Shown in pieces: positions 3,250-46,362 of a stretch of 64,000 bases of DNA. This DNA comes from a virus, in the IMG/VR virus record IMGVR_UViG_3300006226_000022. One strand, written 5' to 3'. Under the pieces are notes generated by a model, which was given only the letters and a program-made list of their open reading frames with translations, did not search any database and had not been told where the DNA came from. Position 1 is the first letter of the stretch; each line of letters opens with the position of its first letter. A program made the translations under genes and the position numbers.

Positions 3250-3813
3250 CTAAGATGTGCCTAAGGTATTATGTGCGAGTTCGATTTGCTGAGCCATCGT
3301 CAAATCACGCGAGAAAGTAACGTGACAGTGCGAGCAGGATAGTGTTCTGTCTTGAGGACGTATTTTATCCAAATACTCAGTTTGGCAATGAGAACAAACT
3401 AAAGTAAAATCAGGTACTTCTACAATGCTGACATCATACTTCTTCGAAACGGCGTGCAATTTACGAACAAAACCGCCAAAATCATAATCAAGTGCAAATT
3501 TAGATGACGGCACAGTTTTTGGAATATGAATCACTGTAAATCGACGGCAAATCCTATGTGCTACTTTATAATGCCAATCGGCTAGTTTAGCCTTAGCATG
3601 TTTCATAAAATGCACTATTTGCCGTTCGAGTTTCTCTATGGATTTCGGCGATTTACTGACAGACAGCCTTTTATGGAGTTTTCTGATAACTCTAGCATTC
3701 TTAACAACGAATTTGGGGGCGTGGATGCACTGCCCATTGCTAAACGTGATAAAAGATTTTATGTCGAAAAATAAACCAATTGTACCGGAAGATGTGCGCT
3801 GCGACTTCTGCAT
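3250..3813 (-). pseudogene. tnpB: 5'-truncated TnpB-like (IS200/IS605 OrfB) remnant: RuvC/Zn-finger half only
   Basis: 187 aa: GLFFDIKSFITFSNGQCIHAPKFVVKNARVIRKLHKRLS (TnpB RuvC-I neighbourhood), ADWHYKVAHRI...YDVSIVEV (RuvC-II), CSHC...CSHC zinc finger, SRDLTMAQQIELA (degenerate RuvC-III). N-terminal WED/REC half absent; the upstream ORF 3816..4127 is unrelated. Confidence 0.55.
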
Positions 3814-38880: not shown

Positions 38881-38915
38881 TACGCTTCAAATAATCTACG
38901 AAAATCTAATATATT

Positions 38916-40319
38916 CTATTTTTCAAATCCAACCGTTCCAAAATGATAAACTTTTGTTATATTAGAAACAGAAATTGATTTCTTCTCACCATCTTTCATA
39001 ACCAAAACTTGTTTTCCATAACTATGGCAACCTTTTGAAACATATCGTTTCTTTCCAACCCAAACTAAATCGCCAGGCTGGATAGCATATCTTCTACGTC
39101 TGATTGTTATCTGCCTTCCAGGCTTTTGAACCTGTAACGATCTATTATTCTTACGCCGTTCTGCCAATAACAACGGTTCCGACAATAATTGATTTGTTCC
39201 ACCAGCAATTACAAACGCATCGTTATAATGTGTTTTAGGTAAGCCTAACTCATTTCGTTTCACTTGCGTTATGTAACCAAAAGTCTCAACAATATCAGGA
39301 TAACGTTCACGTAATCGCTTACGCAATATGTTCATAAAAGTCTCTGCCTTATATTGTTTGTTCTTTTTCAATACACTGAAGTCATTTTTATCATGCATAA
39401 CCCGATGACAAGTATCATGCAGCAATGCCATATTATCCGGCTTATCTGTACCACCATTAGCCACATGAATTATGTGATGCATTTCTATTCGTTCGCCTTT
39501 TTCTATTTTCTTGCCACAATATTGACAAATTCCATGCTCTCTAGCAAACAAATAATTCCGCAGATTAGTGCGAAATAATTTACCCTGTTGATAGCCTACA
39601 CCCTGTATTTCAGGGTTTTCTAACTTCTGCATGTCAAAAGAACCACTCTCTGTCCTGATCTCAGATACAGGGCATATTGCGCGTAACTTATCAATCTCGC
39701 GATAATGCCGGTTTATCCGACGATCTACTGATGGAGGTACATCCTTATTGCGATGACTCGCTCTGTTCTTCCAACGTGCAGGGCGATAGCGGCATTTGCG
39801 ATTACGCCGACTACGGCGATACATCGCTCGTGTCGATAAACGCTCGGACATTTTATTGTCCAGCTTTATCTGACCTAGTGCATAGCAATACTTACCGACT
39901 AAGGCAAATCCAATGTAACCATATCCTTCATCTATGCCTAATGGTATAGGCTGCGTTGCACCTCCTACATGCGTTGTTAACTTGATTGTAAAATATGGTC
40001 TAGCTGAAACCACTACAGCTTTTCTCCCCTCTAGTAACTTACGAGCTTTTCTAGGCTTGCACGGCATAAGAGGTGTACCATTTGCGTCCAGTACAAAAAC
40101 GTGCACACTTTCAACCGCTACCTTTCGGAGCTGTTCGGGCTGTGCGTCCCGTTGATCCACTTCGGCGTGATCCAATCCAGTTTCGGTAAATAAATCTACC
40201 GTCCCCGCCGCACTGTCGCTTTCGCGACTGTTTAGCGACAGGGTTACAGAGCGACCGACTAGTGGAGCATCTGCCGGTGTGTTCTGAAACTCTAAAGGTA
40301 TCGTCTGTTTTCTAACCAT
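38916..40319 (-). CDS. iscB: IscB-like RNA-guided nuclease (PLMP, RuvC-I, arginine-rich bridge helix, RuvC-II, HNH, RuvC-III); true start probably GTG at 40106
   Basis: HVFVLDANGTPLMPCKPRKARKLL (PLMP motif), LGIDEGYGYIGFALV (RuvC-I, GID), RAMYRRSRRNRKCRYRPARWKNR (RRxRR bridge helix), SEIRTESGSFDMQKLENPEIQGVGYQQG (RuvC-II), HHIIHVANGGTDKPDNMALLHDTCHRVMH (HNH), KTHYNDAFVIAGG (RuvC-III). The first 71 codons of the ATG-initiated ORF overlap the structured candidate omegaRNA and are probably not translated. Confidence 0.75.
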   Translation of the reverse strand: MVRKQTIPLEFQNTPADAPLVGRSVTLSLNSRESDSAAGTVDLFTETGLDHAEVDQRDAQPEQLRKVAVESVHVFVLDANGTPLMPCKPRKARKLLEGRKAVVVSARPYFTIKLTTHVGGATQPIPLGIDEGYGYIGFALVGKYCYALGQIKLDNKMSERLSTRAMYRRSRRNRKCRYRPARWKNRASHRNKDVPPSVDRRINRHYREIDKLRAICPVSEIRTESGSFDMQKLENPEIQGVGYQQGKLFRTNLRNYLFAREHGICQYCGKKIEKGERIEMHHIIHVANGGTDKPDNMALLHDTCHRVMHDKNDFSVLKKNKQYKAETFMNILRKRLRERYPDIVETFGYITQVKRNELGLPKTHYNDAFVIAGGTNQLLSEPLLLAERRKNNRSLQVQKPGRQITIRRRRYAIQPGDLVWVGKKRYVSKGCHSYGKQVLVMKDGEKKSISVSNITKVYHFGTVGFEK

Positions 40320-40400
40320 AAAGTATAATTAAAAGTGACCGCCTAGATCCCTAACTAATGCACAGAATTACGTAGAATATCCTACATAATTAAACACTAG
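40107..40400 (-). ncRNA. candidate omegaRNA of the IscB locus
   Basis: Immediately 5' of the IscB core on the same strand. Minus-strand sequence holds several GNRA-capped hairpins (GTCGC-GAAA-GCGAC within CTGTCGCTAAACAGTCGCGAAAGCGACAG; GGATCACGCCGAAGTGGATC; GCTCC-GAAA-GGTAGC). Boundaries are approximate. Confidence 0.35.
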
Positions 40401-40867
40401 TCATGAACCATACTGGGATTATCAGAGGTATTGACAGAATGCGCGTTTTGCACACCGACCAAAACTTGCATTTCGGGGATATTCGGATACAATACCCCCA
40501 ACATAGCGATTAAAGCGTTCGTCCCTGTCTCCACCATAAAACCATCAGGATACAAAATATCATGAAATTCTTCAAACGTCATAGTATCCTGCTCGGCGAC
40601 GTGGCTGTACACAAATCTCGCAGCCCCATACACATTGGCAAACATCATGCTCCTACCATCGCCGAATTGGGTTGACAATATCATGGCTTTGTCCAGAACA
40701 TCGAGCATAAAACTCTTCTGAACAGTATCCGGCAATAACTTCACCGTTTCATTCGCCTGATTTATGTACGTCTGCCTCAACCATGAATCAATAGAATCCA
40801 CATCTTTGACCGTAGGTGTTCGCAAATTTATCTCACGTCCATTTGATAGGGTATAGGGTGTACTCAT
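40397..40867 (-). CDS. hypothetical protein
   Basis: 156-aa minus ORF. Confidence 0.4.
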   Translation of the reverse strand: MSTPYTLSNGREINLRTPTVKDVDSIDSWLRQTYINQANETVKLLPDTVQKSFMLDVLDKAMILSTQFGDGRSMMFANVYGAARFVYSHVAEQDTMTFEEFHDILYPDGFMVETGTNALIAMLGVLYPNIPEMQVLVGVQNAHSVNTSDNPSMVHD

Positions 40868-40924: not shown

Positions 40925-41437
40925 TTACGTAAACCGCACAGTGTACGTCACGTCAAACAAATACCGTCGAGAACTGCCGTCCAATCCTCTATCACGAATC
41001 GTCTCTAAACGATTACATGTCAATGCCGTACGAACTTCAGCAGACTGCGGCTCGTCATTCCTCTTTTTGAATTCACCAAGATTGTCATCAGGTATAGCCA
41101 CTACGTAATTTTTCAATGTGTCCAATGTCCGAGCTATATGATGTATTTTTGTCAAACCAGCAACATAATCCGTTGTCCGCACACAAATCTTAACGTTTGC
41201 CTGTTCCAACGGAATACCATCGCTTATGTATTTACCGCGTTCAGCCTGAGTATAATCCACGTCCAAAACAGCAATGAAATTATTAGGACATGTGGAAAAA
41301 TCCGGCATTTTTAAACAAGAAATTGCATACCACGCATTCGGATCGCGAGCGGACGGGTCGTTGGGCATGTCATCGATACTTACACAGAAACCCTCTAATA
41401 CCAAAATCTGAAAAATACCATGCGCAGGTGTTAACAT
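40925..41437 (-). CDS. hypothetical protein
   Basis: 170-aa minus ORF. Confidence 0.4.
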   Translation of the reverse strand: MLTPAHGIFQILVLEGFCVSIDDMPNDPSARDPNAWYAISCLKMPDFSTCPNNFIAVLDVDYTQAERGKYISDGIPLEQANVKICVRTTDYVAGLTKIHHIARTLDTLKNYVVAIPDDNLGEFKKRNDEPQSAEVRTALTCNRLETIRDRGLDGSSRRYLFDVTYTVRFT

Positions 41438-41772
41438 TATTTTTTCTCAGAAGGAAGTCGCAAATCAGGAATTTCTACAGGAGGCTTGGGATCTCGCGTG
41501 AAATCATCAAAATGACGATTTCCTATCCTGTCAGGTTGTGCGGTTATTATTCCCACAACAAACATGTTTCTATCGCCTCCGTACATTTTTCGTTTTAACG
41601 CAAAGTCGTCAGAGTTAGCAGAAACACGGGGCGCAGGAGTGTTCTGAATGGCTATTTCAGGCGAAGTGGCTAGTGTGTGTTTCGTACCGTCATAAGAAAA
41701 ACCACGAGTGGTGGTTTTACCGGACGGGACATCAATGGGCGAAGCGACTATTTTCATGGGTCTTAAAAACAA
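41437..41772 (-). CDS. hypothetical protein
   Basis: 111-aa minus ORF; start overlaps the upstream stop. Confidence 0.35.
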   Translation of the reverse strand: MFLRPMKIVASPIDVPSGKTTTRGFSYDGTKHTLATSPEIAIQNTPAPRVSANSDDFALKRKMYGGDRNMFVVGIITAQPDRIGNRHFDDFTRDPKPPVEIPDLRLPSEKK

Positions 41773-41850
41773 AATGCTTTTCGCCGATTATAGCAGAAAT
41801 CAAACCTATGATTTTTCAAATTATCTTATACAAAACAGAGATAGTTAATA

Positions 41851-41887
41851 CAAAAAAAGACTACCATTAAACCGCTTAATGGTAGTC
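41851..41887 (-). terminator. rho-independent terminator (minus strand)
   Basis: gactaccattaa-accgc-ttaatggtagtc perfect 12-bp stem, followed on the minus strand by TTTTTTTG. Confidence 0.55.
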
Positions 41888-42219
41888 CAGCTCATAGTGT
41901 ACTTGACAAATTACGACTCCGAAGAGAATTACTATATGCCAAGTTTTATCCTCTCTCGCTTCCCACCCCGAGCGTTCCCAAGCGAGTAGAGCAGCCCTAT
42001 CCATAATCAGTTTGATGGATGCTAGCGGTTAGGATCCACCTTCCTCCTTTCATTTCCTGACTAACAGTACTATTTATCATACTATTATCAGTTAATACAA
42101 AGATAAAGAAATGTCCAAATATCATAAATTGCAAATTGTAAAACGGGGCTAAAATCACAGCTGCGGCGAGTTCGTCAAAACCGCACAACAAGAAAATTCC
42201 AACCCCCTTGTTCGAAAAT

Positions 42220-42426: not shown

Positions 42427-42517
42427 TATTTTGTTCTGTGGTTTAATGTTGTAATTTACATGGTTACAAAATTATGAAATTTACAAAACAATACTTTAAT
42501 TATTAAATGTTTTATAA

Positions 42518-44611
42518 TTAAACTTTTGAAAACAGCCGCTTATCATAGTTCACATTTATTTCATGCGATGTTTTTTCTGCCCAAGATTTACCTAACGGTG
42601 CGACATCAGCTTCTACTGTCATAGGCACAGTCAGCCACGGATGCAATAGAGGTACTCGTACGGTCATCCAGTAATGGCATAACTGCAAAAATCGCTCCAG
42701 CTCTGCTTCCGGCACATCTGCCACTATCGAATCGTGTATTTCATTTATGAGCAACGTGCCAGGAAACATTTTAGTACCATCGGCGTTTGTAAGCGTCTGT
42801 AAATCATTATGAATGCCGCAAAGTGCTGTCAAAAGACAATGGGCGGCACTACATTGAGACGGCGTATTAGTCGCCGAATTTCTAGGAATCACACCACCAA
42901 CACGAAATCCATCGGGCGTGTCCACATAACCTTTTTGCTGTGCTTCCCTAAACACATCCTTTTTCCAATCTCGGTATCCGCTAAATAACAAATCCCAAAA
43001 CTCTCGTTCTATATTTTGAATCAAATACTCGTAACTACCGGGCTGGGGTCGATCTCCATTGGACAAACATGTTATACCTTTTGACCGCAGATGATCACAT
43101 AATAGCGTCCCATTTTTAAGTTTCAATCCAGCTATTTGTATCGTATCCCATAACGCCAAGGCCATCTGTTTCCAATACGACCCATAAAATGCAGCGAATG
43201 TAAAATCCCCTTTAACCGACTGGCGCATATCTTTGGTTATATCCGCCTCATCTAACAAATAAATCTTTGACGCTACCCATCTATGAAAATCCAACCCTTC
43301 AGTAATACTCTTCACAAGCGTCTTGTCATGATTCACTGACGCGCTTGTACAAACCTCAATTCCAGAAAAATCCACTTCAACAATATGCCTATTTTTAGCC
43401 CGAGGCACAAACAATGTACGGACGAGTTTTTGTACAACCTTATTGCGTGCGGGTATATTCTGAACGTTAGGTTCTTTACAAGAGTTATGTACCACCAGTT
43501 CATTCGCTACAAAATTAGAATAACCGCTCACTTCCAAATCATACACATCTACTTCGATGCCCAAATCCTCTACACGAAGAATTTCGTACACAGACGTTTC
43601 GACCGTGAGTTCTGGTGTTCTATCCCATTTACGGCGTTTGTAGTACATATTAGGCGAATGAATCGATAATACACACCTGTTATAGGGAGAATTAGGCTTG
43701 AATGCATCCGACTTATATTCCAGCACATTTTGCGCTTCGCAATATTCGCCGTCCGCCATACGCACACGATGATCCGGCGTACAATCCAAATATGCTTGTC
43801 TGCCATCATGTAGAACATAATGCAACCGAATAATCTTTTTCCTACCTGTTTTCCACTGATTTTTGACTTTAACAACCGTTGGCTCCAAATTATCATCAAG
43901 ACAATACACATAATTTCCAGGCTTCACATCTGATATACGGATTTTCTTGACTGTTTCCACACCGCGATCATAAAAACACGTTAAAATTTGCGCGCCTGCT
44001 GCCAAACAAGTCCGGTACGTAATTACCGATAAAAGCGAAAAACTCGGATGAACGAAATCATCTTTATCTATTGTGGCTTCCAAACCGACAATATACGTAC
44101 TACGTAATTTGAGCATAGACTGATAGTCCGCATACAAAAATATAAAATCTTTAATATCGGGGTATTTTGCCGTCAGACGGTACAAAGCCTTTTTGTCCAT
44201 TTCAAGAGCTTCATCTAACGTCAGGTCATTCACTTGTAACCGCAAACCGTGCACTTTATCAGTAAATAAAACCTGAGCCAACTCGTTACGGTTCGACCAC
44301 GTAGGATTTTTAACAATACGCTGCCAACGTTGCCCTATGTCCATCTGAGCCAATTTCTGCTCATAGTCGGCTATTATATCACCAGCTTCTTTTTTATTTT
44401 GCTCTAATCGAGCACGGTCAATTTTCAGCCCATTTGCTTCGATAGCAGCCAAAACACGCTGACTTTCAACAAAAAGAGAAACTGCGGTATCTACTGTGTG
44501 CCAAGTGGTCTTACCGGGCGATGTATCTTTGTGAATTTTTTGTTTAATATGCATAACAAAAATCAATCCATGACATACTATAATAGAAATTACAATCGTA
44601 CAGAAAAGCAT
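42518..44611 (-). CDS. family-A DNA polymerase (polymerase domain only) interrupted by a mini-intein
   Basis: Extein: ...SLLSVITYRT|...|SCKEPNVQNIPARN (Pol I TGRLSS.PNLQNIP motif), EVDFSGIEV (motif A), RQSVKGDFTFAAFYGS (motif B), EIHDSIVADV (motif C). No 3'-5' exonuclease domain. First ~19 hydrophobic codons may not be translated (alternative Met at codon 20). Confidence 0.75.
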   Translation of the reverse strand: MLFCTIVISIIVCHGLIFVMHIKQKIHKDTSPGKTTWHTVDTAVSLFVESQRVLAAIEANGLKIDRARLEQNKKEAGDIIADYEQKLAQMDIGQRWQRIVKNPTWSNRNELAQVLFTDKVHGLRLQVNDLTLDEALEMDKKALYRLTAKYPDIKDFIFLYADYQSMLKLRSTYIVGLEATIDKDDFVHPSFSLLSVITYRTCLAAGAQILTCFYDRGVETVKKIRISDVKPGNYVYCLDDNLEPTVVKVKNQWKTGRKKIIRLHYVLHDGRQAYLDCTPDHRVRMADGEYCEAQNVLEYKSDAFKPNSPYNRCVLSIHSPNMYYKRRKWDRTPELTVETSVYEILRVEDLGIEVDVYDLEVSGYSNFVANELVVHNSCKEPNVQNIPARNKVVQKLVRTLFVPRAKNRHIVEVDFSGIEVCTSASVNHDKTLVKSITEGLDFHRWVASKIYLLDEADITKDMRQSVKGDFTFAAFYGSYWKQMALALWDTIQIAGLKLKNGTLLCDHLRSKGITCLSNGDRPQPGSYEYLIQNIEREFWDLLFSGYRDWKKDVFREAQQKGYVDTPDGFRVGGVIPRNSATNTPSQCSAAHCLLTALCGIHNDLQTLTNADGTKMFPGTLLINEIHDSIVADVPEAELERFLQLCHYWMTVRVPLLHPWLTVPMTVEADVAPLGKSWAEKTSHEINVNYDKRLFSKV
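43484..44008 (-). mobile_element. mini-intein (175 aa, residues 202-376 of the polymerase ORF)
   Basis: Starts CLAAGAQILT (block A), contains TPDHRVRMADGEY (block B TxxH), ends VYDLEVSGYSNFVANELVVHN followed by +1 Ser; no homing-endonuclease domain. ORFs 43385..43669 (+) and 43570..43911 (-) inside it are artefacts. Confidence 0.7.
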
Positions 44612-44620
44612 CCAACGAAC

Positions 44621-44650
44621 TTTTAATTATAAAATATTGTATATTTAACT
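44621..44650. promoter_or_regulatory. intergenic palindrome copy between divergent genes (polymerase on minus, LRR gene on plus)
   Basis: TTTTAATTATAAAATATTGTATATTTAACT; -10-like TATAAT on both strands. Confidence 0.5.
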
Positions 44651-44652
44651 CC

Positions 44653-46362
44653 ATGAGAAACGCTTCAAAAAAATGGATGCGGCTTTGCGGCGAATCCACA
44701 TGCCTACCGCAAGAGGACATATTCAACGCACATGCGAATTCTGACCCCACACCAAGGGCATTCAATACAAATTTGACCGGTGTGGAAACGTCCGACATGA
44801 AAAACATCCTGCCAGCCGAAACACTCTTTCAAAAAGGACGACTTTTATTAGTGCAAGAGCGGTTCCTGAATACATCCGCAGAATTTAGAAAAAACAGTCT
44901 AAACCATCCGCAACGCTTCTATGGTGCCACATCACGCCCATTCGAACAATTAGATTTACTCGTAGAGGGCAATGATTTTTACATCCCGACCGGCGGTGTA
45001 TCTTCCAGCAATGCCCAATGCGAATACGACTGGGATATTTTTATAAACAACCAATACTACAAAACATTCAGGGGATACTCAGGCGCAAAATCGACTGGAC
45101 TCAGAATAGTCAAAAAAAACAACACAAAAATCAAAGACGACGTATTTCTATACAGACAGAGCGATACTGCGGATATTCGGCACAATTACAGCACAACAGT
45201 ACCAATTAAAGCCGATTACGGCTACAGAATCTTGCCGTTTTACGTCCAGCAGACATCAAACGGTCAACTCAATAAATGCACATTGGGTACTGCACCAAGT
45301 ATATCCATCACATCCGAACAAAGTAAATTCAACATACGATATCAACTCCCTACTAACATATCTACCACTAAAGCAAACACATTACGAATTTGGCAATATG
45401 TCGCGATATGCCCACACGGAAAAGAAATCAACAGAAATGACATCAAAACATACTTGCTTTATTTATCAGTACCAGACCTTTGGGATCGTGTCGTTGACAT
45501 TTGCGAACTAGAACAAGGACATTCCTGTACCACAGACTTTGCTGCGAAAATACTCAAAGAACAAGACATAAAACCGTGCAGAGATATTAAATGGATTATG
45601 CCGGTAGCCCATTCTGTTAAATATTATCCAGAACACACCAGCCCAAAACACATCCAACGAAATCAAATGCTCATCACTATCAGGCCAAACGCAAAATACC
45701 CACCACAACAAGCATGGCTGCGTGCATTCGGTTTCAATCCAAACCTAGAAAGCTTTGAAATTTGGAATTCTCAAAACAACAAAGATTTATTACTCGAGGT
45801 GGCGGGTATTATCACGCCAGAAATGGTATGTGATCAAAACTGCACATCCGCAGGGAATAACACGTTTAGAAGTTGGTTCGACGGTTGCTCAAACCTAAAA
45901 AAAGTAGATTTAATTTTTCACCACACATGGAACAACGTCAAAACATGCGGTGATTTTTTCAGTTACAGAATGTTTGCAAATTGCCACAATCTAACAGATT
46001 TTAATCCAAACTGGAGCGAACCCCAAGGTTTTACAGCCGTAGGGGATTATCACAACATGAGCAAATACATGAACTGCACAAATCTAGTCTGTGTATCAAA
46101 AAATTACAACGAATCCTACAATATCCGTCAGGCAGGAATAGGATTCGGTAGTTACGAATTCTCTGGATGTACCAATCTGATAACCCCAAGTATATTTTAT
46201 ACAGAACCGCGACAATTCGACAACACACCGCCAGCCATAAACAGTTATAAATTTGAAAACTGCACAAATCTAAATAATTTTCATCAATATAACGAAACAA
46301 AAATACAAGGCAACAGTCCTCAAGCATATTTAGCTGGAAAATTTGACGGTACGCCGCTATGA
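44653..46362 (+). CDS. BspA-type leucine-rich-repeat protein (only long plus-strand gene)
   Basis: Repeated F.NC.NL... units (FANCHNLTDF, MNCTNLVCV, FSGCTNLITP, FENCTNLNNF, FDGCSNLKKVDL) typical of BspA-like LRRs. Confidence 0.5.
   Translation: MRNASKKWMRLCGESTCLPQEDIFNAHANSDPTPRAFNTNLTGVETSDMKNILPAETLFQKGRLLLVQERFLNTSAEFRKNSLNHPQRFYGATSRPFEQLDLLVEGNDFYIPTGGVSSSNAQCEYDWDIFINNQYYKTFRGYSGAKSTGLRIVKKNNTKIKDDVFLYRQSDTADIRHNYSTTVPIKADYGYRILPFYVQQTSNGQLNKCTLGTAPSISITSEQSKFNIRYQLPTNISTTKANTLRIWQYVAICPHGKEINRNDIKTYLLYLSVPDLWDRVVDICELEQGHSCTTDFAAKILKEQDIKPCRDIKWIMPVAHSVKYYPEHTSPKHIQRNQMLITIRPNAKYPPQQAWLRAFGFNPNLESFEIWNSQNNKDLLLEVAGIITPEMVCDQNCTSAGNNTFRSWFDGCSNLKKVDLIFHHTWNNVKTCGDFFSYRMFANCHNLTDFNPNWSEPQGFTAVGDYHNMSKYMNCTNLVCVSKNYNESYNIRQAGIGFGSYEFSGCTNLITPSIFYTEPRQFDNTPPAINSYKFENCTNLNNFHQYNETKIQGNSPQAYLAGKFDGTPL

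What the first reader, a model, noticed from the sequence alone, without database searches (positions are those of the whole stretch)
42518..44611. Family-A DNA polymerase reduced to the polymerase domain and split by a 175-aa mini-intein before the PNxQNIP motif
The intein sits between ...ITYRT and SCKEPNVQNIPARN (the T/SGR(L)SS.PNLQNIP region) and has blocks A, B and the C-terminal VYDLEV...NFVANELVVHN+S, but no homing-endonuclease domain. The host protein lacks any 3'-5' exonuclease domain, so proofreading must be encoded elsewhere or be absent.
Basis: partly seen in the sequence, partly recalled or inferred. Interest (0 to 1): 0.55.

Follow-up and report, generated by a model that had tools for sequence, protein, structure and literature searches.

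The report
Mini-intein inside a phage DNA polymerase
A phage DNA polymerase gene that encodes only the polymerase half of the enzyme is interrupted by a small self-splicing protein element (a mini-intein); the call is correct, but the element belongs to a large family of inteins found at this same spot, so it is a fairly ordinary new example.

Summary
ORF 42518..44611 (-) encodes a family A DNA polymerase. It is interrupted by a 175-aa in-frame insert (nt 43484..44008) lying between ...ITYRT and SCKEPNVQNIP.

The insert is a class-1 mini-intein:
- It has Cys1, block B TPDH, a block F Asp, terminal His-Asn and a +1 Ser.
- It passes the Pfam Intein_splicing cut-off.
- Its AlphaFold model (pLDDT 92.9) matches only solved inteins and HINT domains.
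- dN/dS against an 84%-identical relative is 0.11.
- It is the splicing core of HNH-endonuclease inteins found at the same site in relatives, with the roughly 185-205-aa endonuclease part missing.

An exhaustive search found 629 representative proteins carrying related inteins. Nearly all of the best 150 sit in PolA at this TGR/YR...PNxQN motif, and roughly one in six of those I could delimit are minis.

The missing exonuclease domain is a family trait: more than 100 homologues are 450-500 aa. In six of seven more distant relatives a separate UDG+3'-5'-exonuclease gene lies within 10 kb. None is detectable in this 64-kb window or in the contigs of its two closest relatives.

Verdict: a new member of a known kind, of moderate to low interest.

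The parts
42518..44611 (-). Complete ORF (697 aa from the first ATG; stop codon at 42518-42520): precursor of a polymerase-domain-only family A DNA polymerase containing a mini-intein
44537..44554 (-). Probable true start (Met20, MHIKQK). It gives a 678-aa precursor and a 503-aa spliced polymerase.
   Evidence: P0001 (86-90% identical) and P0002 (62-66%) start at the equivalent Met. tblastn of both begins at 44554.
44009..44554 (-). N-extein (thumb and first part of the palm), ending ...SLLSVITYRT. The Arg corresponds to Klenow R668 / Bst R615 of the TGR motif.
   Evidence: (R invariant in 107 sequences)
43484..44008 (-). 175-aa class-1 mini-intein (HINT splicing domain only)
43988..44008 (-). 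Intein block A: Cys1 nucleophile (CLAAGAQ)
   Evidence: C1 invariant
43769..43780 (-). Intein block B: TPDH (Thr77 and His80 of the intein)
   Evidence: T77, P78 and H80 invariant
43595..43663 (-). Linker left where the homing endonuclease sits in relatives (IHSPNMYYKRRKWDRTPELTVET); the low-confidence loop of the models falls within it
   Evidence: Alignment gap of about 185-205 residues against P0019, P0113 and RcKickapoo. pLDDT drops to 55-80 here in the intein model and below 50 in the precursor model.
43484..43549 (-). Intein blocks F and G: DVYDLEV...NFVANELVVHN (block F Asp157, penultimate His174, terminal Asn175)
   Evidence: Y156, D157, H174 and N175 invariant
42521..43483 (-). C-extein, starting with the +1 Ser (SCKEPNVQNIP) and carrying motifs A, B and C of the polymerase
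43352..43381 (-). Polymerase motif A (VEVDFSGIEV): catalytic Asp and the Glu equivalent to Klenow E710
   Evidence: D and E invariant in 107 family members; aligned to Bst DYSQIEL
43181..43225 (-). Polymerase motif B / O-helix (RQSVKGDFTFAAFYG)
   Evidence: R, K, F, F, Y and G invariant
42722..42742 (-). Polymerase motif C, here EIHDSIV (HDS instead of the canonical HDE)
   Evidence: H, D and S invariant. HDS is found in 116 of 120 family members.
44622..44649 (.). Copy of a 28-bp AT-rich palindrome in the 41-bp gap between the polymerase ORF and the divergent + strand gene; probable promoter or operator
42495..42522 (.). Second copy of the same palindrome, overlapping the polymerase stop codon

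Best explanation
The gene encodes a phage replicative family A DNA polymerase of a subfamily that consists of the polymerase domain only. It is translated as a 678-aa precursor (697 aa if the first ATG is used).

The precursor carries a 175-aa class-1 mini-intein between the residues equivalent to Klenow L669 and S670 (Bst L616/S617). That puts it inside the motif TGR-LSS-xx-PNLQNIP, which binds the primer-terminus minor groove.

Inferred mechanism (canonical class-1 splicing):
1. An N-S acyl shift at Thr(-1)/Cys1.
2. Transfer of the N-extein to the hydroxyl of Ser+1.
3. Cyclisation of Asn175, assisted by His174 and the block B and F residues.
4. An O-N shift, giving a 503-aa polymerase that reads ...ITYRT-SCKEPNVQNIP...

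The intein descends from an HNH-endonuclease intein that homes to this site. It has lost the endonuclease, so it can no longer home. It is inherited vertically and kept under selection only because it must splice for the polymerase to work.

Proofreading is not built into the protein. In more distant family members it is supplied by a separately encoded UDG-like + 3'-5' exonuclease protein. For this phage, the most likely situation is that such a partner is encoded outside the window. This last point is inferred, not shown.
For: Intein identity:
- Pfam Intein_splicing is above its cut-off.
- C1, T77-P78-x-H80, D157, H174-N175 and S+1 are invariant in the alignment with five homologous inteins.
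- The AF2 model has pLDDT 92.9 and pTM 0.86.
- All 50 top Foldseek PDB hits are inteins or HINT domains: Ssp DnaB mini-intein, Mtu RecA, Npu DnaB, Ssp DnaE. Target-normalised TM reaches 0.83.

In-frame insertion in a conserved site:
- Bst/Klenow alignments are continuous across the insert.
- Intein-free homologues read straight through.

Mini status and origin:
- There is an alignment gap of about 185-205 residues exactly where P0019, P0113 and Rhodobacter phage RcKickapoo carry an HNH domain.
- No endonuclease is found in any frame.

Selection and vertical descent:
- dN/dS is 0.113 for the intein and 0.056 for the extein against P0001.
- Intein and extein are equally diverged from P0002, at 61% and 62% aa identity.
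- Gene order is syntenic in L001 and L007.

Polymerase competence:
- The motif A Asp and Glu, the motif B Arg, Lys and Tyr-Gly, Q567 (which I take to be the Klenow Q849 equivalent) and the motif C His-Asp are invariant in 107 sequences.
- The precursor model has pLDDT 83.6, with polymerase blocks above 90, and its top structural hits are Bst, Klenow and Taq Pol I.

Polymerase-only architecture as a family trait:
- 155 homologues were found, and the great majority of the 120 listed are 450-510 aa.

Trans-encoded exonuclease in relatives:
- A profile of 57 UDG-exo regions hits one gene in each of L004, L005, L006, L008, L009 and L010, with E from 1e-82 to 1e-128.
- In L009 that gene overlaps the polymerase start by 4 bp.
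- P0088 is a fused UDG+PolA protein of 864 aa.
Against: - Splicing has not been demonstrated.
- The Pfam intein score is only just above threshold for the whole ORF (36.3 against 35.8).
- No UDG-exo or other DnaQ-like exonuclease is detectable in the 64-kb window, in L001 (20.7 kb) or in L007 (6.9 kb). Tests were Pfam and PHROG scans of about 60 ORFs and two custom profiles against all six-frame ORFs. The 'partner outside the window' step is therefore an assumption.
- Motif C reads HDS, not HDE. The residue equivalent to Klenow E883, one of the three active-site carboxylates, is a Ser. It is invariant in the family, so it is unlikely to be a defect, but its biochemical consequence is unknown.
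Confidence: 0.88

Rival explanations
1. The 175-aa segment is a lineage-specific polymerase insertion or a dead intein remnant. It is not removed and stays in the mature enzyme, or it inactivates the enzyme.
For: - The insert is shared only by the window, P0001 and P0002 among the closest homologues.
- The Pfam score is close to threshold.
- There is no experimental splicing data.
Against: - All splicing residues are intact and invariant.
- The HINT fold is predicted with high confidence.
- dN/dS is 0.11.
- The insert splits the R668...N675 primer-binding motif (my mapping). An unspliced protein would be unlikely to bind the primer terminus, yet the exteins are under strong purifying selection (dN/dS 0.056).
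- 629 homologous inteins exist, mostly at the same site.
Confidence: 0.05
2. The polymerase-only ORF is a fragment of a broken full-length PolA gene (a pseudogene or an assembly or frameshift artefact). The + strand gene at 44653..46362 would have been inserted between the exonuclease and polymerase halves.
For: - The ORF starts within about 40 bp of a divergently oriented gene.
- Czernecki et al. 2023 (PMC10201439) state that PolAs structurally need the exonuclease domain.
Against: - More than 100 homologues from independent contigs have the same length of roughly 460-490 aa and their own start codons.
- The upstream 920-aa ORF and all other window ORFs lack any exonuclease signal.
- The same divergent arrangement is conserved in L001 at 60% aa identity.
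- A promoter-like palindrome sits directly upstream of the ORF.
Confidence: 0.03
3. This phage clade has no proofreading partner at all, or uses one unrelated to DnaQ-like exonucleases. The polymerase would work as a naturally exonuclease-free replicase.
For: - No UDG-exo gene lies within 42 kb on one side and 19 kb on the other side of the gene, nor in L001 or L007. In six of seven other contexts it lies within 10 kb.
- The gene has moved to a different neighbourhood. The window lacks the SNF2 helicase and clamp-loader-like neighbours seen next to the polymerase in L002, L004, L005 and L010. L006, L008 and L009 carry only the clamp-loader-like gene nearby.
Against: - The window is only part of a genome of unknown size.
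- Absence within a window is weak evidence.
- Many window ORFs have no detectable family, and one of them could be a diverged partner.
Confidence: 0.2

Closest known systems
HNH-endonuclease intein in the DNA polymerase (gp74, UUV43815.1) of Rhodobacter phage RcKickapoo (OP009274.1)
   Same: - A homologous intein: 34% identity over the N-terminal splicing half, with shared C1, TPDH, VYD and CVHN|S.
- The same host motif in a family A polymerase (TGRSA|C...HN|SDNPNGQNFP).
   Different: - The RcKickapoo intein is 321 aa and carries an HNH endonuclease.
- It sits one residue further downstream in the five-residue linker.
- Its host is a 1247-aa fused UDG-exo-pol enzyme.
- The record does not annotate the intein.
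- It is the only clear carrier among 50,697 phage records.
Metagenomic PolA inteins at the TGR/YR...PNxQN site
   Same: - The same intein family and the same insertion hot spot.
- Among the 116 I could delimit, 62 share the window's exact position, one residue after the Arg and four before PN.
- 20 of the 116 are likewise minis of 141-179 aa.
   Different: - Most (78 of 116) are at least 300 aa. 86 of the 96 that are at least 200 aa match an HNH pattern.
- Their hosts include canonical TGRL-type and 1200-aa UDG-exo-pol enzymes as well as polymerase-only proteins.
Engineered or natural mini-inteins with solved structures (Ssp DnaB mini-intein 6frg/1mi8, Mtu RecA splicing domain 2imz, Npu DnaB 4o1r)
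   Same: - The same HINT fold: Foldseek E from 2e-8 to 1e-7, target-normalised TM 0.70-0.83.
- The same class-1 residue set.
   Different: - Sequence identity is only 16-25%.
- The host proteins are different.
- Mtu RecA and Ssp DnaB minis were made by deleting the endonuclease in the laboratory (my knowledge). Here the deletion is natural.
S-SBP1-like split T7-type PolA (Czernecki et al. 2023, PMC10201439)
   Same: The polymerase domain is encoded as a separate gene from the 3'-5' exonuclease. In the relative L009 the exonuclease and polymerase genes are adjacent and overlap by 4 bp, like the S-SBP1 fission.
   Different: - This is a different PolA lineage: YR instead of GR in the TGR motif and HDS instead of HDE in motif C.
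- The partner also carries a UDG-like domain.
- In most relatives the two genes lie 2-7 kb apart.
- In this window no partner is found at all.
CCPol of staphylococcal SCC elements (as described in PMC10201439)
   Same: A family A polymerase that lacks most of the exonuclease domain and has no complementary exonuclease gene nearby.
   Different: - CCPol keeps three exonuclease helices and pairs with the small protein MP and the helicase Cch2.
- It is related to the CHEAP subfamily and occurs on bacterial mobile elements.
- No homology beyond the general PolA level was seen here.

Membership tests
Class-1 intein (HINT superfamily) | N-terminal nucleophile Cys/Ser at position 1 (block A) | tested here: met
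   Cys1 (CLAAG), invariant
Class-1 intein (HINT superfamily) | Block B TxxH motif | tested here: met
   T77-P78-D79-H80; T, P and H invariant
Class-1 intein (HINT superfamily) | Block F Asp and block G penultimate His + terminal Asn | tested here: met
   D157, H174 and N175 invariant
Class-1 intein (HINT superfamily) | +1 nucleophile (Ser/Thr/Cys) on the C-extein | tested here: met
   Ser377 (SCKEPN), invariant. Other alleles carry Ser or Cys.
Class-1 intein (HINT superfamily) | HINT fold | tested here: met
   AF2 pLDDT 92.9; the 50 best PDB matches are all inteins or HINT domains; Pfam PF14890 above cut-off
Class-1 intein (HINT superfamily) | In-frame insertion in a conserved host site, with intein-free homologues that are colinear across the junction | tested here: met
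   Bst/Klenow alignment; P0003 and more than 100 intein-free homologues
Class-1 intein (HINT superfamily) | Protein splicing actually occurs | not testable with these tools
   Supported indirectly only, by intact residues and dN/dS of 0.11
Mini-intein | No homing-endonuclease domain within or overlapping the intein | tested here: met
   175 aa in total. Pfam finds only Intein_splicing and Hint in frame, and nothing in the out-of-frame and antisense ORFs. There is a gap of about 185-205 aa against HNH-bearing homologues.
Family A DNA polymerase (polymerase domain) | Motifs A (D..E), B (R..K...F...YG) and C (HD) and the right-hand fold | tested here: met
   Pfam PF00476 at 1.5e-37; invariant residues; Foldseek top hits are Bst/Klenow/Taq Pol I. 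Motif C reads HDS, so the third carboxylate of HDE is absent.
Klenow-type PolA architecture (exo + pol in one chain) | N-terminal 3'-5' exonuclease domain, active or vestigial | tested here: not met
   No PF01612 hit. The alignment to the Bst large fragment starts at chain position 187. The AF2 model has only a disordered stretch of about 20 residues before the first polymerase helix.
Split exo/pol PolA (S-SBP1-like or UDG-exo + pol as in L004-L006, L008-L010) | A separate gene for the 3'-5' exonuclease in the same genome | tested here: inconclusive
   Present in six relatives. Not detectable in the 64-kb window, L001 or L007. The rest of the genome is not available.

The most novel reading that the evidence does not exclude
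The clade formed by this phage, P0001 and P0002 has lost the trans-encoded UDG-exonuclease subunit. It would then replicate with a naturally exonuclease-free, polymerase-domain-only family A enzyme, or with an unrelated, unrecognised partner. This would contradict two published generalisations: that PolAs structurally need an exonuclease domain, and that all phage PolAs keep proofreading (PMC10201439).
Probability: 0.15. Interest if true: 0.55.

Novelty: new member of a known kind. Interest (0 to 1): 0.3.

Why it matters
On its own, this is one more intein in a replication enzyme at a catalytically important motif, which is the classic pattern. Its value lies in three pieces of context.

1. 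The TGR...PNxQN motif of family A polymerases hosts a very large family of mostly HNH-type inteins that is poorly documented. I found 629 representative proteins, yet only one clear case among about 50,000 deposited phage genomes. I found no description in the literature I could search.

2. The window shows the end state of the homing cycle. It is a natural mini-intein that has co-diverged with its host gene and is kept under purifying selection. That makes it a compact natural candidate for protein-engineering use.

3. The host belongs to an abundant, uncharacterised PolA lineage in which polymerase and UDG+exonuclease are separate genes. This is a second, independent case of the exo/pol split reported so far only for S-SBP1-like T7-type phages.

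Tried and rejected
- Megablast of 40-50 kb against 50,697 phage records gave no match.
- The search for homologous proteins with the intein alone returned nothing. This is a limit of the word index, because P0001 and P0002 do contain the intein. The exhaustive HMMER search replaced it.
- I searched for an exonuclease in the window with Pfam and PHROG scans of about 60 ORFs. I also used tblastn and a 3-sequence profile of the L004-L006 UDG-exo proteins and a 57-sequence profile. All were negative.
- I tested for a non-canonical endonuclease (out of frame or antisense) inside the intein DNA. Pfam found nothing.
- I considered that the three small genes upstream of the polymerase in L001 (99, 123 and 196 aa) could be an exonuclease. 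They have no Pfam hit on record and do not look like one.
- A scan of IMG/VR for close relatives of the precursor found none.
- Literature searches for a described PolA intein at this site found only a general statement that bacterial DNA polymerase I can carry inteins (PMC4760082). Nothing turned up on this site or on phage PolA inteins. The supplement of PMC4760082 is not held.
- I considered a redox switch formed by Cys1 and the +2 Cys of the C-extein (SCKEPN). P0002 has SSHSPN, so the Cys is not conserved, and I did not pursue this.
Full report
**1. The observation**

The minus-strand ORF 42518..44611 (697 aa) exists as described. Pfam finds DNA_pol_A (E=1.5e-37) in three stretches and Intein_splicing (PF14890) over residues 225-376. 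PHROGs assigns it to DNA polymerase families.

phmmer against solved structures aligns it with Bst, Klenow and Taq Pol I in three pieces:
- query 51-191 with Bst chain 187-311;
- query 377-478 with chain 322-421;
- query 534-655 with chain 441-567.

So 185 query residues stand where Bst has ten. The insert is exactly 175 aa (residues 202-376, nt 43484..44008). It begins CLAAG, contains TPDH, ends DVYDLEV...NFVANELVVHN and is followed by Ser. The flanks are ...ITYRT and SCKEPNVQNIP.

One correction: the likely start is Met20 (nt 44554). The closest homologues P0001 (86-90% identical) and P0002 start at the equivalent MHIKQK/MLVKQR, and the first 19 codons are a hydrophobic read-through.

**2. 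Is it an intein?**

Yes, by every test available here.
- Aligned with five homologous inserts, the invariant positions include all those a class-1 intein needs: C1, T77-P78-x-H80 (block B), D157 (block F), H174-N175 (block G) and the +1 Ser.
- The insert alone scores 41.1 bits on PF14890, against a cut-off of 35.8.
- An AlphaFold2 model built from a 20-sequence alignment has mean pLDDT 92.9 and pTM 0.86.
- The 50 best Foldseek matches in the PDB are all inteins or HINT domains. They are led by the Ssp DnaB mini-intein, the Mtu RecA splicing domain, Npu DnaB and Ssp DnaE, with target-normalised TM up to 0.83.
- Intein-free homologues run straight through the junction. P0003 reads YRTSCTAPNIQQIP, and the spliced window protein would read YRTSCKEPNVQNIP.

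**3. Is it a mini-intein, and where did it come from?**

It carries no endonuclease. Pfam finds only the splicing and Hint models in frame. It finds nothing in the out-of-frame (43570..43911) or antisense (43385..43669) ORFs that overlap it.

The alignment shows the origin. P0019 and P0113 are polymerase-only homologues of 835 and 834 aa. Rhodobacter phage RcKickapoo has a 1247-aa DNA polymerase. All three carry inteins of 321-358 aa with an HNH domain (Pfam HNH_3 on record for P0019 and P0113) at this site.

The window intein matches their N- and C-terminal splicing halves. It lacks the roughly 185-205 residues between '...LSIH' and 'YEILRVE'. The low-confidence loop in both models falls within that stretch.

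The mini form is shared by the window, P0001 and P0002. Against P0002, intein and extein are equally diverged (61% and 62% aa identity). Against P0001, dN/dS is 0.113 for the intein and 0.056 for the exteins. Gene order around the polymerase gene is conserved in both relatives' contigs.

I infer that the endonuclease was lost before these three lineages split. Since then the intein has been inherited vertically and kept functional for splicing.

**4. Insertion site**

From the alignment, Ser377 pairs with the first Ser of Bst 'SSTEPNLQNIP'. The invariant Arg of YRT pairs with the Arg of TGR. In Klenow numbering (my mapping, from established knowledge of the motif TGR668-LSSTD-PN675LQ677NIP) the intein lies between 669 and 670. 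In Bst numbering it lies between L616 and S617. This motif contacts the minor groove at the primer terminus, so the precursor should be inactive until spliced (inference).

**5. How common is this?**

An exhaustive HMMER search of 1.84 billion representative proteins with the intein found 629 hits at E<=1e-3 and 201 at E<=1e-10. I inspected the flanks of the best 150 plus four earlier hits. Nearly all sit in a family A polymerase at this motif, in the pattern ...[GYF]R x(0-3) | C...HN | [SC] x(1-4) PNxQN.P.

Among the 116 whose boundaries I could fix by pattern:
- 108 have the PolA motif downstream;
- 78 are at least 300 aa, 18 are 200-300 aa and 20 are minis of 141-179 aa;
- 86 of the 96 longer ones match an HNH pattern.

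The window's exact position, one residue after Arg and four before PN, is the commonest (62 cases). Positions shifted by one residue (19 cases) and two residues (6 cases) within the same five-residue linker also occur.

By contrast, among 50,697 deposited phage genomes only RcKickapoo clearly carries this intein, and its record does not annotate it. In the literature I could search I found only the general statement that bacterial DNA polymerase I can carry inteins (PMC4760082).

**6. The missing exonuclease domain**

This is a property of the whole subfamily. Of 155 homologues, the great majority of the 120 listed are 450-510 aa, and only DNA_pol_A is on record for them. In 107 aligned members the catalytic residues are invariant. 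Motif C is invariably HDS rather than HDE, and the TGR motif is usually YR/FR. The precursor model (pLDDT 83.6) has a confident polymerase fold that starts after a disordered N-terminus of about 20 residues.

Where is proofreading? In relatives I found a separate gene of 366-420 aa combining a UDG-like domain and a DNA_pol_A_exo1 domain, with an intact FDYET (DxE) motif. A profile of 57 such regions hits one gene in each of L004, L005, L006, L008, L009 and L010, with E from 1e-82 to 1e-128. These genes lie 0-7 kb from the polymerase gene. In L009 the gene overlaps the polymerase start by 4 bp, which is a textbook gene fission. P0088 (864 aa) is the fused form.

The same profiles find nothing in any frame of the 64-kb window, L001, L002 or L007. 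Pfam and PHROG scans of about 60 window ORFs show no exonuclease either.

In this clade, therefore, the partner is more than 19-42 kb away, unrecognisably diverged, or lost. I favour 'outside the window' but cannot show it.

**7. Comparison with what is known**

Czernecki et al. 2023 (PMC10201439) report an exo/pol split 'for the first time' in S-SBP1-like T7-type phages. They describe CCPol as the only PolA lacking most of the exonuclease domain. They also state that all phage PolAs preserve exonuclease activity and that PolAs need the exonuclease domain for stability.

The subfamily seen here is a second, independent split in a different lineage (YR/HDS hallmarks, UDG-exo partner). It is not covered by any of their descriptions that I read. 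That is a family-level observation from metagenomes, not something peculiar to this window.

**8. Verdict**

The feature is a genuine, very probably splicing-competent natural mini-intein in a polymerase-only family A DNA polymerase. It is a new member of a large known kind. Interest is moderate to low, at 0.3.

The open question with some novelty is whether this clade has any proofreading partner.

Noticed in passing
window 7879, 12405, 28936, 29538, 33624, 42495, 44622, 52539, 63783 (each 28 bp): A 28-bp AT-rich palindrome, TTTAATTATAAAATATTGTATAATTAAA, occurs at nine intergenic sites; none is expected in shuffles. It contains a TGnTATAAT-like extended -10 element readable on both strands. 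Two copies bracket the polymerase gene, and the motif is conserved in the relative L007. It is probably a phage promoter or operator.
   Followed up: partly
window 38883-40415 (gene 38916..40319, minus strand): A 467-aa RRXRR + HNH protein (Pfam RRXRR at 1e-52; IscB-like architecture) lies in a segment of about 1.5 kb. That segment is absent from the otherwise colinear relative L007 (84-89% nt identity), so it is a recent mobile insertion. No guide-RNA family was found by Rfam at gathering thresholds.
   Followed up: partly
window 61576..62907 (minus strand): A TnpB-type gene (OrfB_IS605 + Cas12f1-like TNB + HTH), giving a second RNA-guided-nuclease-like mobile element in the same phage window. 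A transposase-like ORF also lies at 3250..3813.
   Followed up: no
window 55182..57674 (minus strand): An 830-aa protein with a major vault protein shoulder domain (1.5e-24) and a Vault_3 repeat, which is unusual in a phage context.
   Followed up: no
window 44653..46362 (plus strand): The only long plus-strand gene in the region (569 aa). It is divergent from the polymerase gene and is conserved in the same place and orientation in L001 (60% aa identity). It has a C-terminal region with repeated C-x-N-L motifs and no Pfam or PHROG family.
   Followed up: partly
window 41459-42206: The gene downstream of the polymerase (160 aa in L007, 400 aa in L001) appears truncated or degraded here. Only a 111-aa ORF (41437..41772) matches it, and nucleotide identity to L007 drops to 70%.
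   Followed up: partly
P0121-P0268; L003:1375-5118: Homologous PolA inteins occupy three adjacent insertion points within the same five-residue linker: after Arg+1 in 62 cases, Arg+2 in 19 and Arg+3 in 6. Each uses a Ser or Cys of the LSS(T) stretch as the +1 residue. The insertion point appears to move by single residues within one intein family.
   Followed up: partly
P0077 (839 aa): A second intein site exists in the same polymerase-only subfamily. A LAGLIDADG-type intein is inserted at NYPIQG|C...HRN|SAFHCLLW, the conserved Q/G motif before motif C.
   Followed up: no
alignment A2: The subfamily invariably has HDS instead of HDE in motif C (116 of 120 members), and usually YR/FR instead of GR in the TGR motif. 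HDS is the motif C form I recall from T7-type single-subunit RNA polymerases. That comparison rests on my own knowledge and was not tested here.
   Followed up: partly
L006, L008, L009: Contigs of more distant polymerase-only relatives carry 7-deazaguanine/queuosine-precursor genes (QueC, QueF, GTP cyclohydrolase I, PTPS, radical SAM) and ThyX next to the replication genes. This suggests modified DNA in those phages. None of these genes was seen in the window.
   Followed up: no
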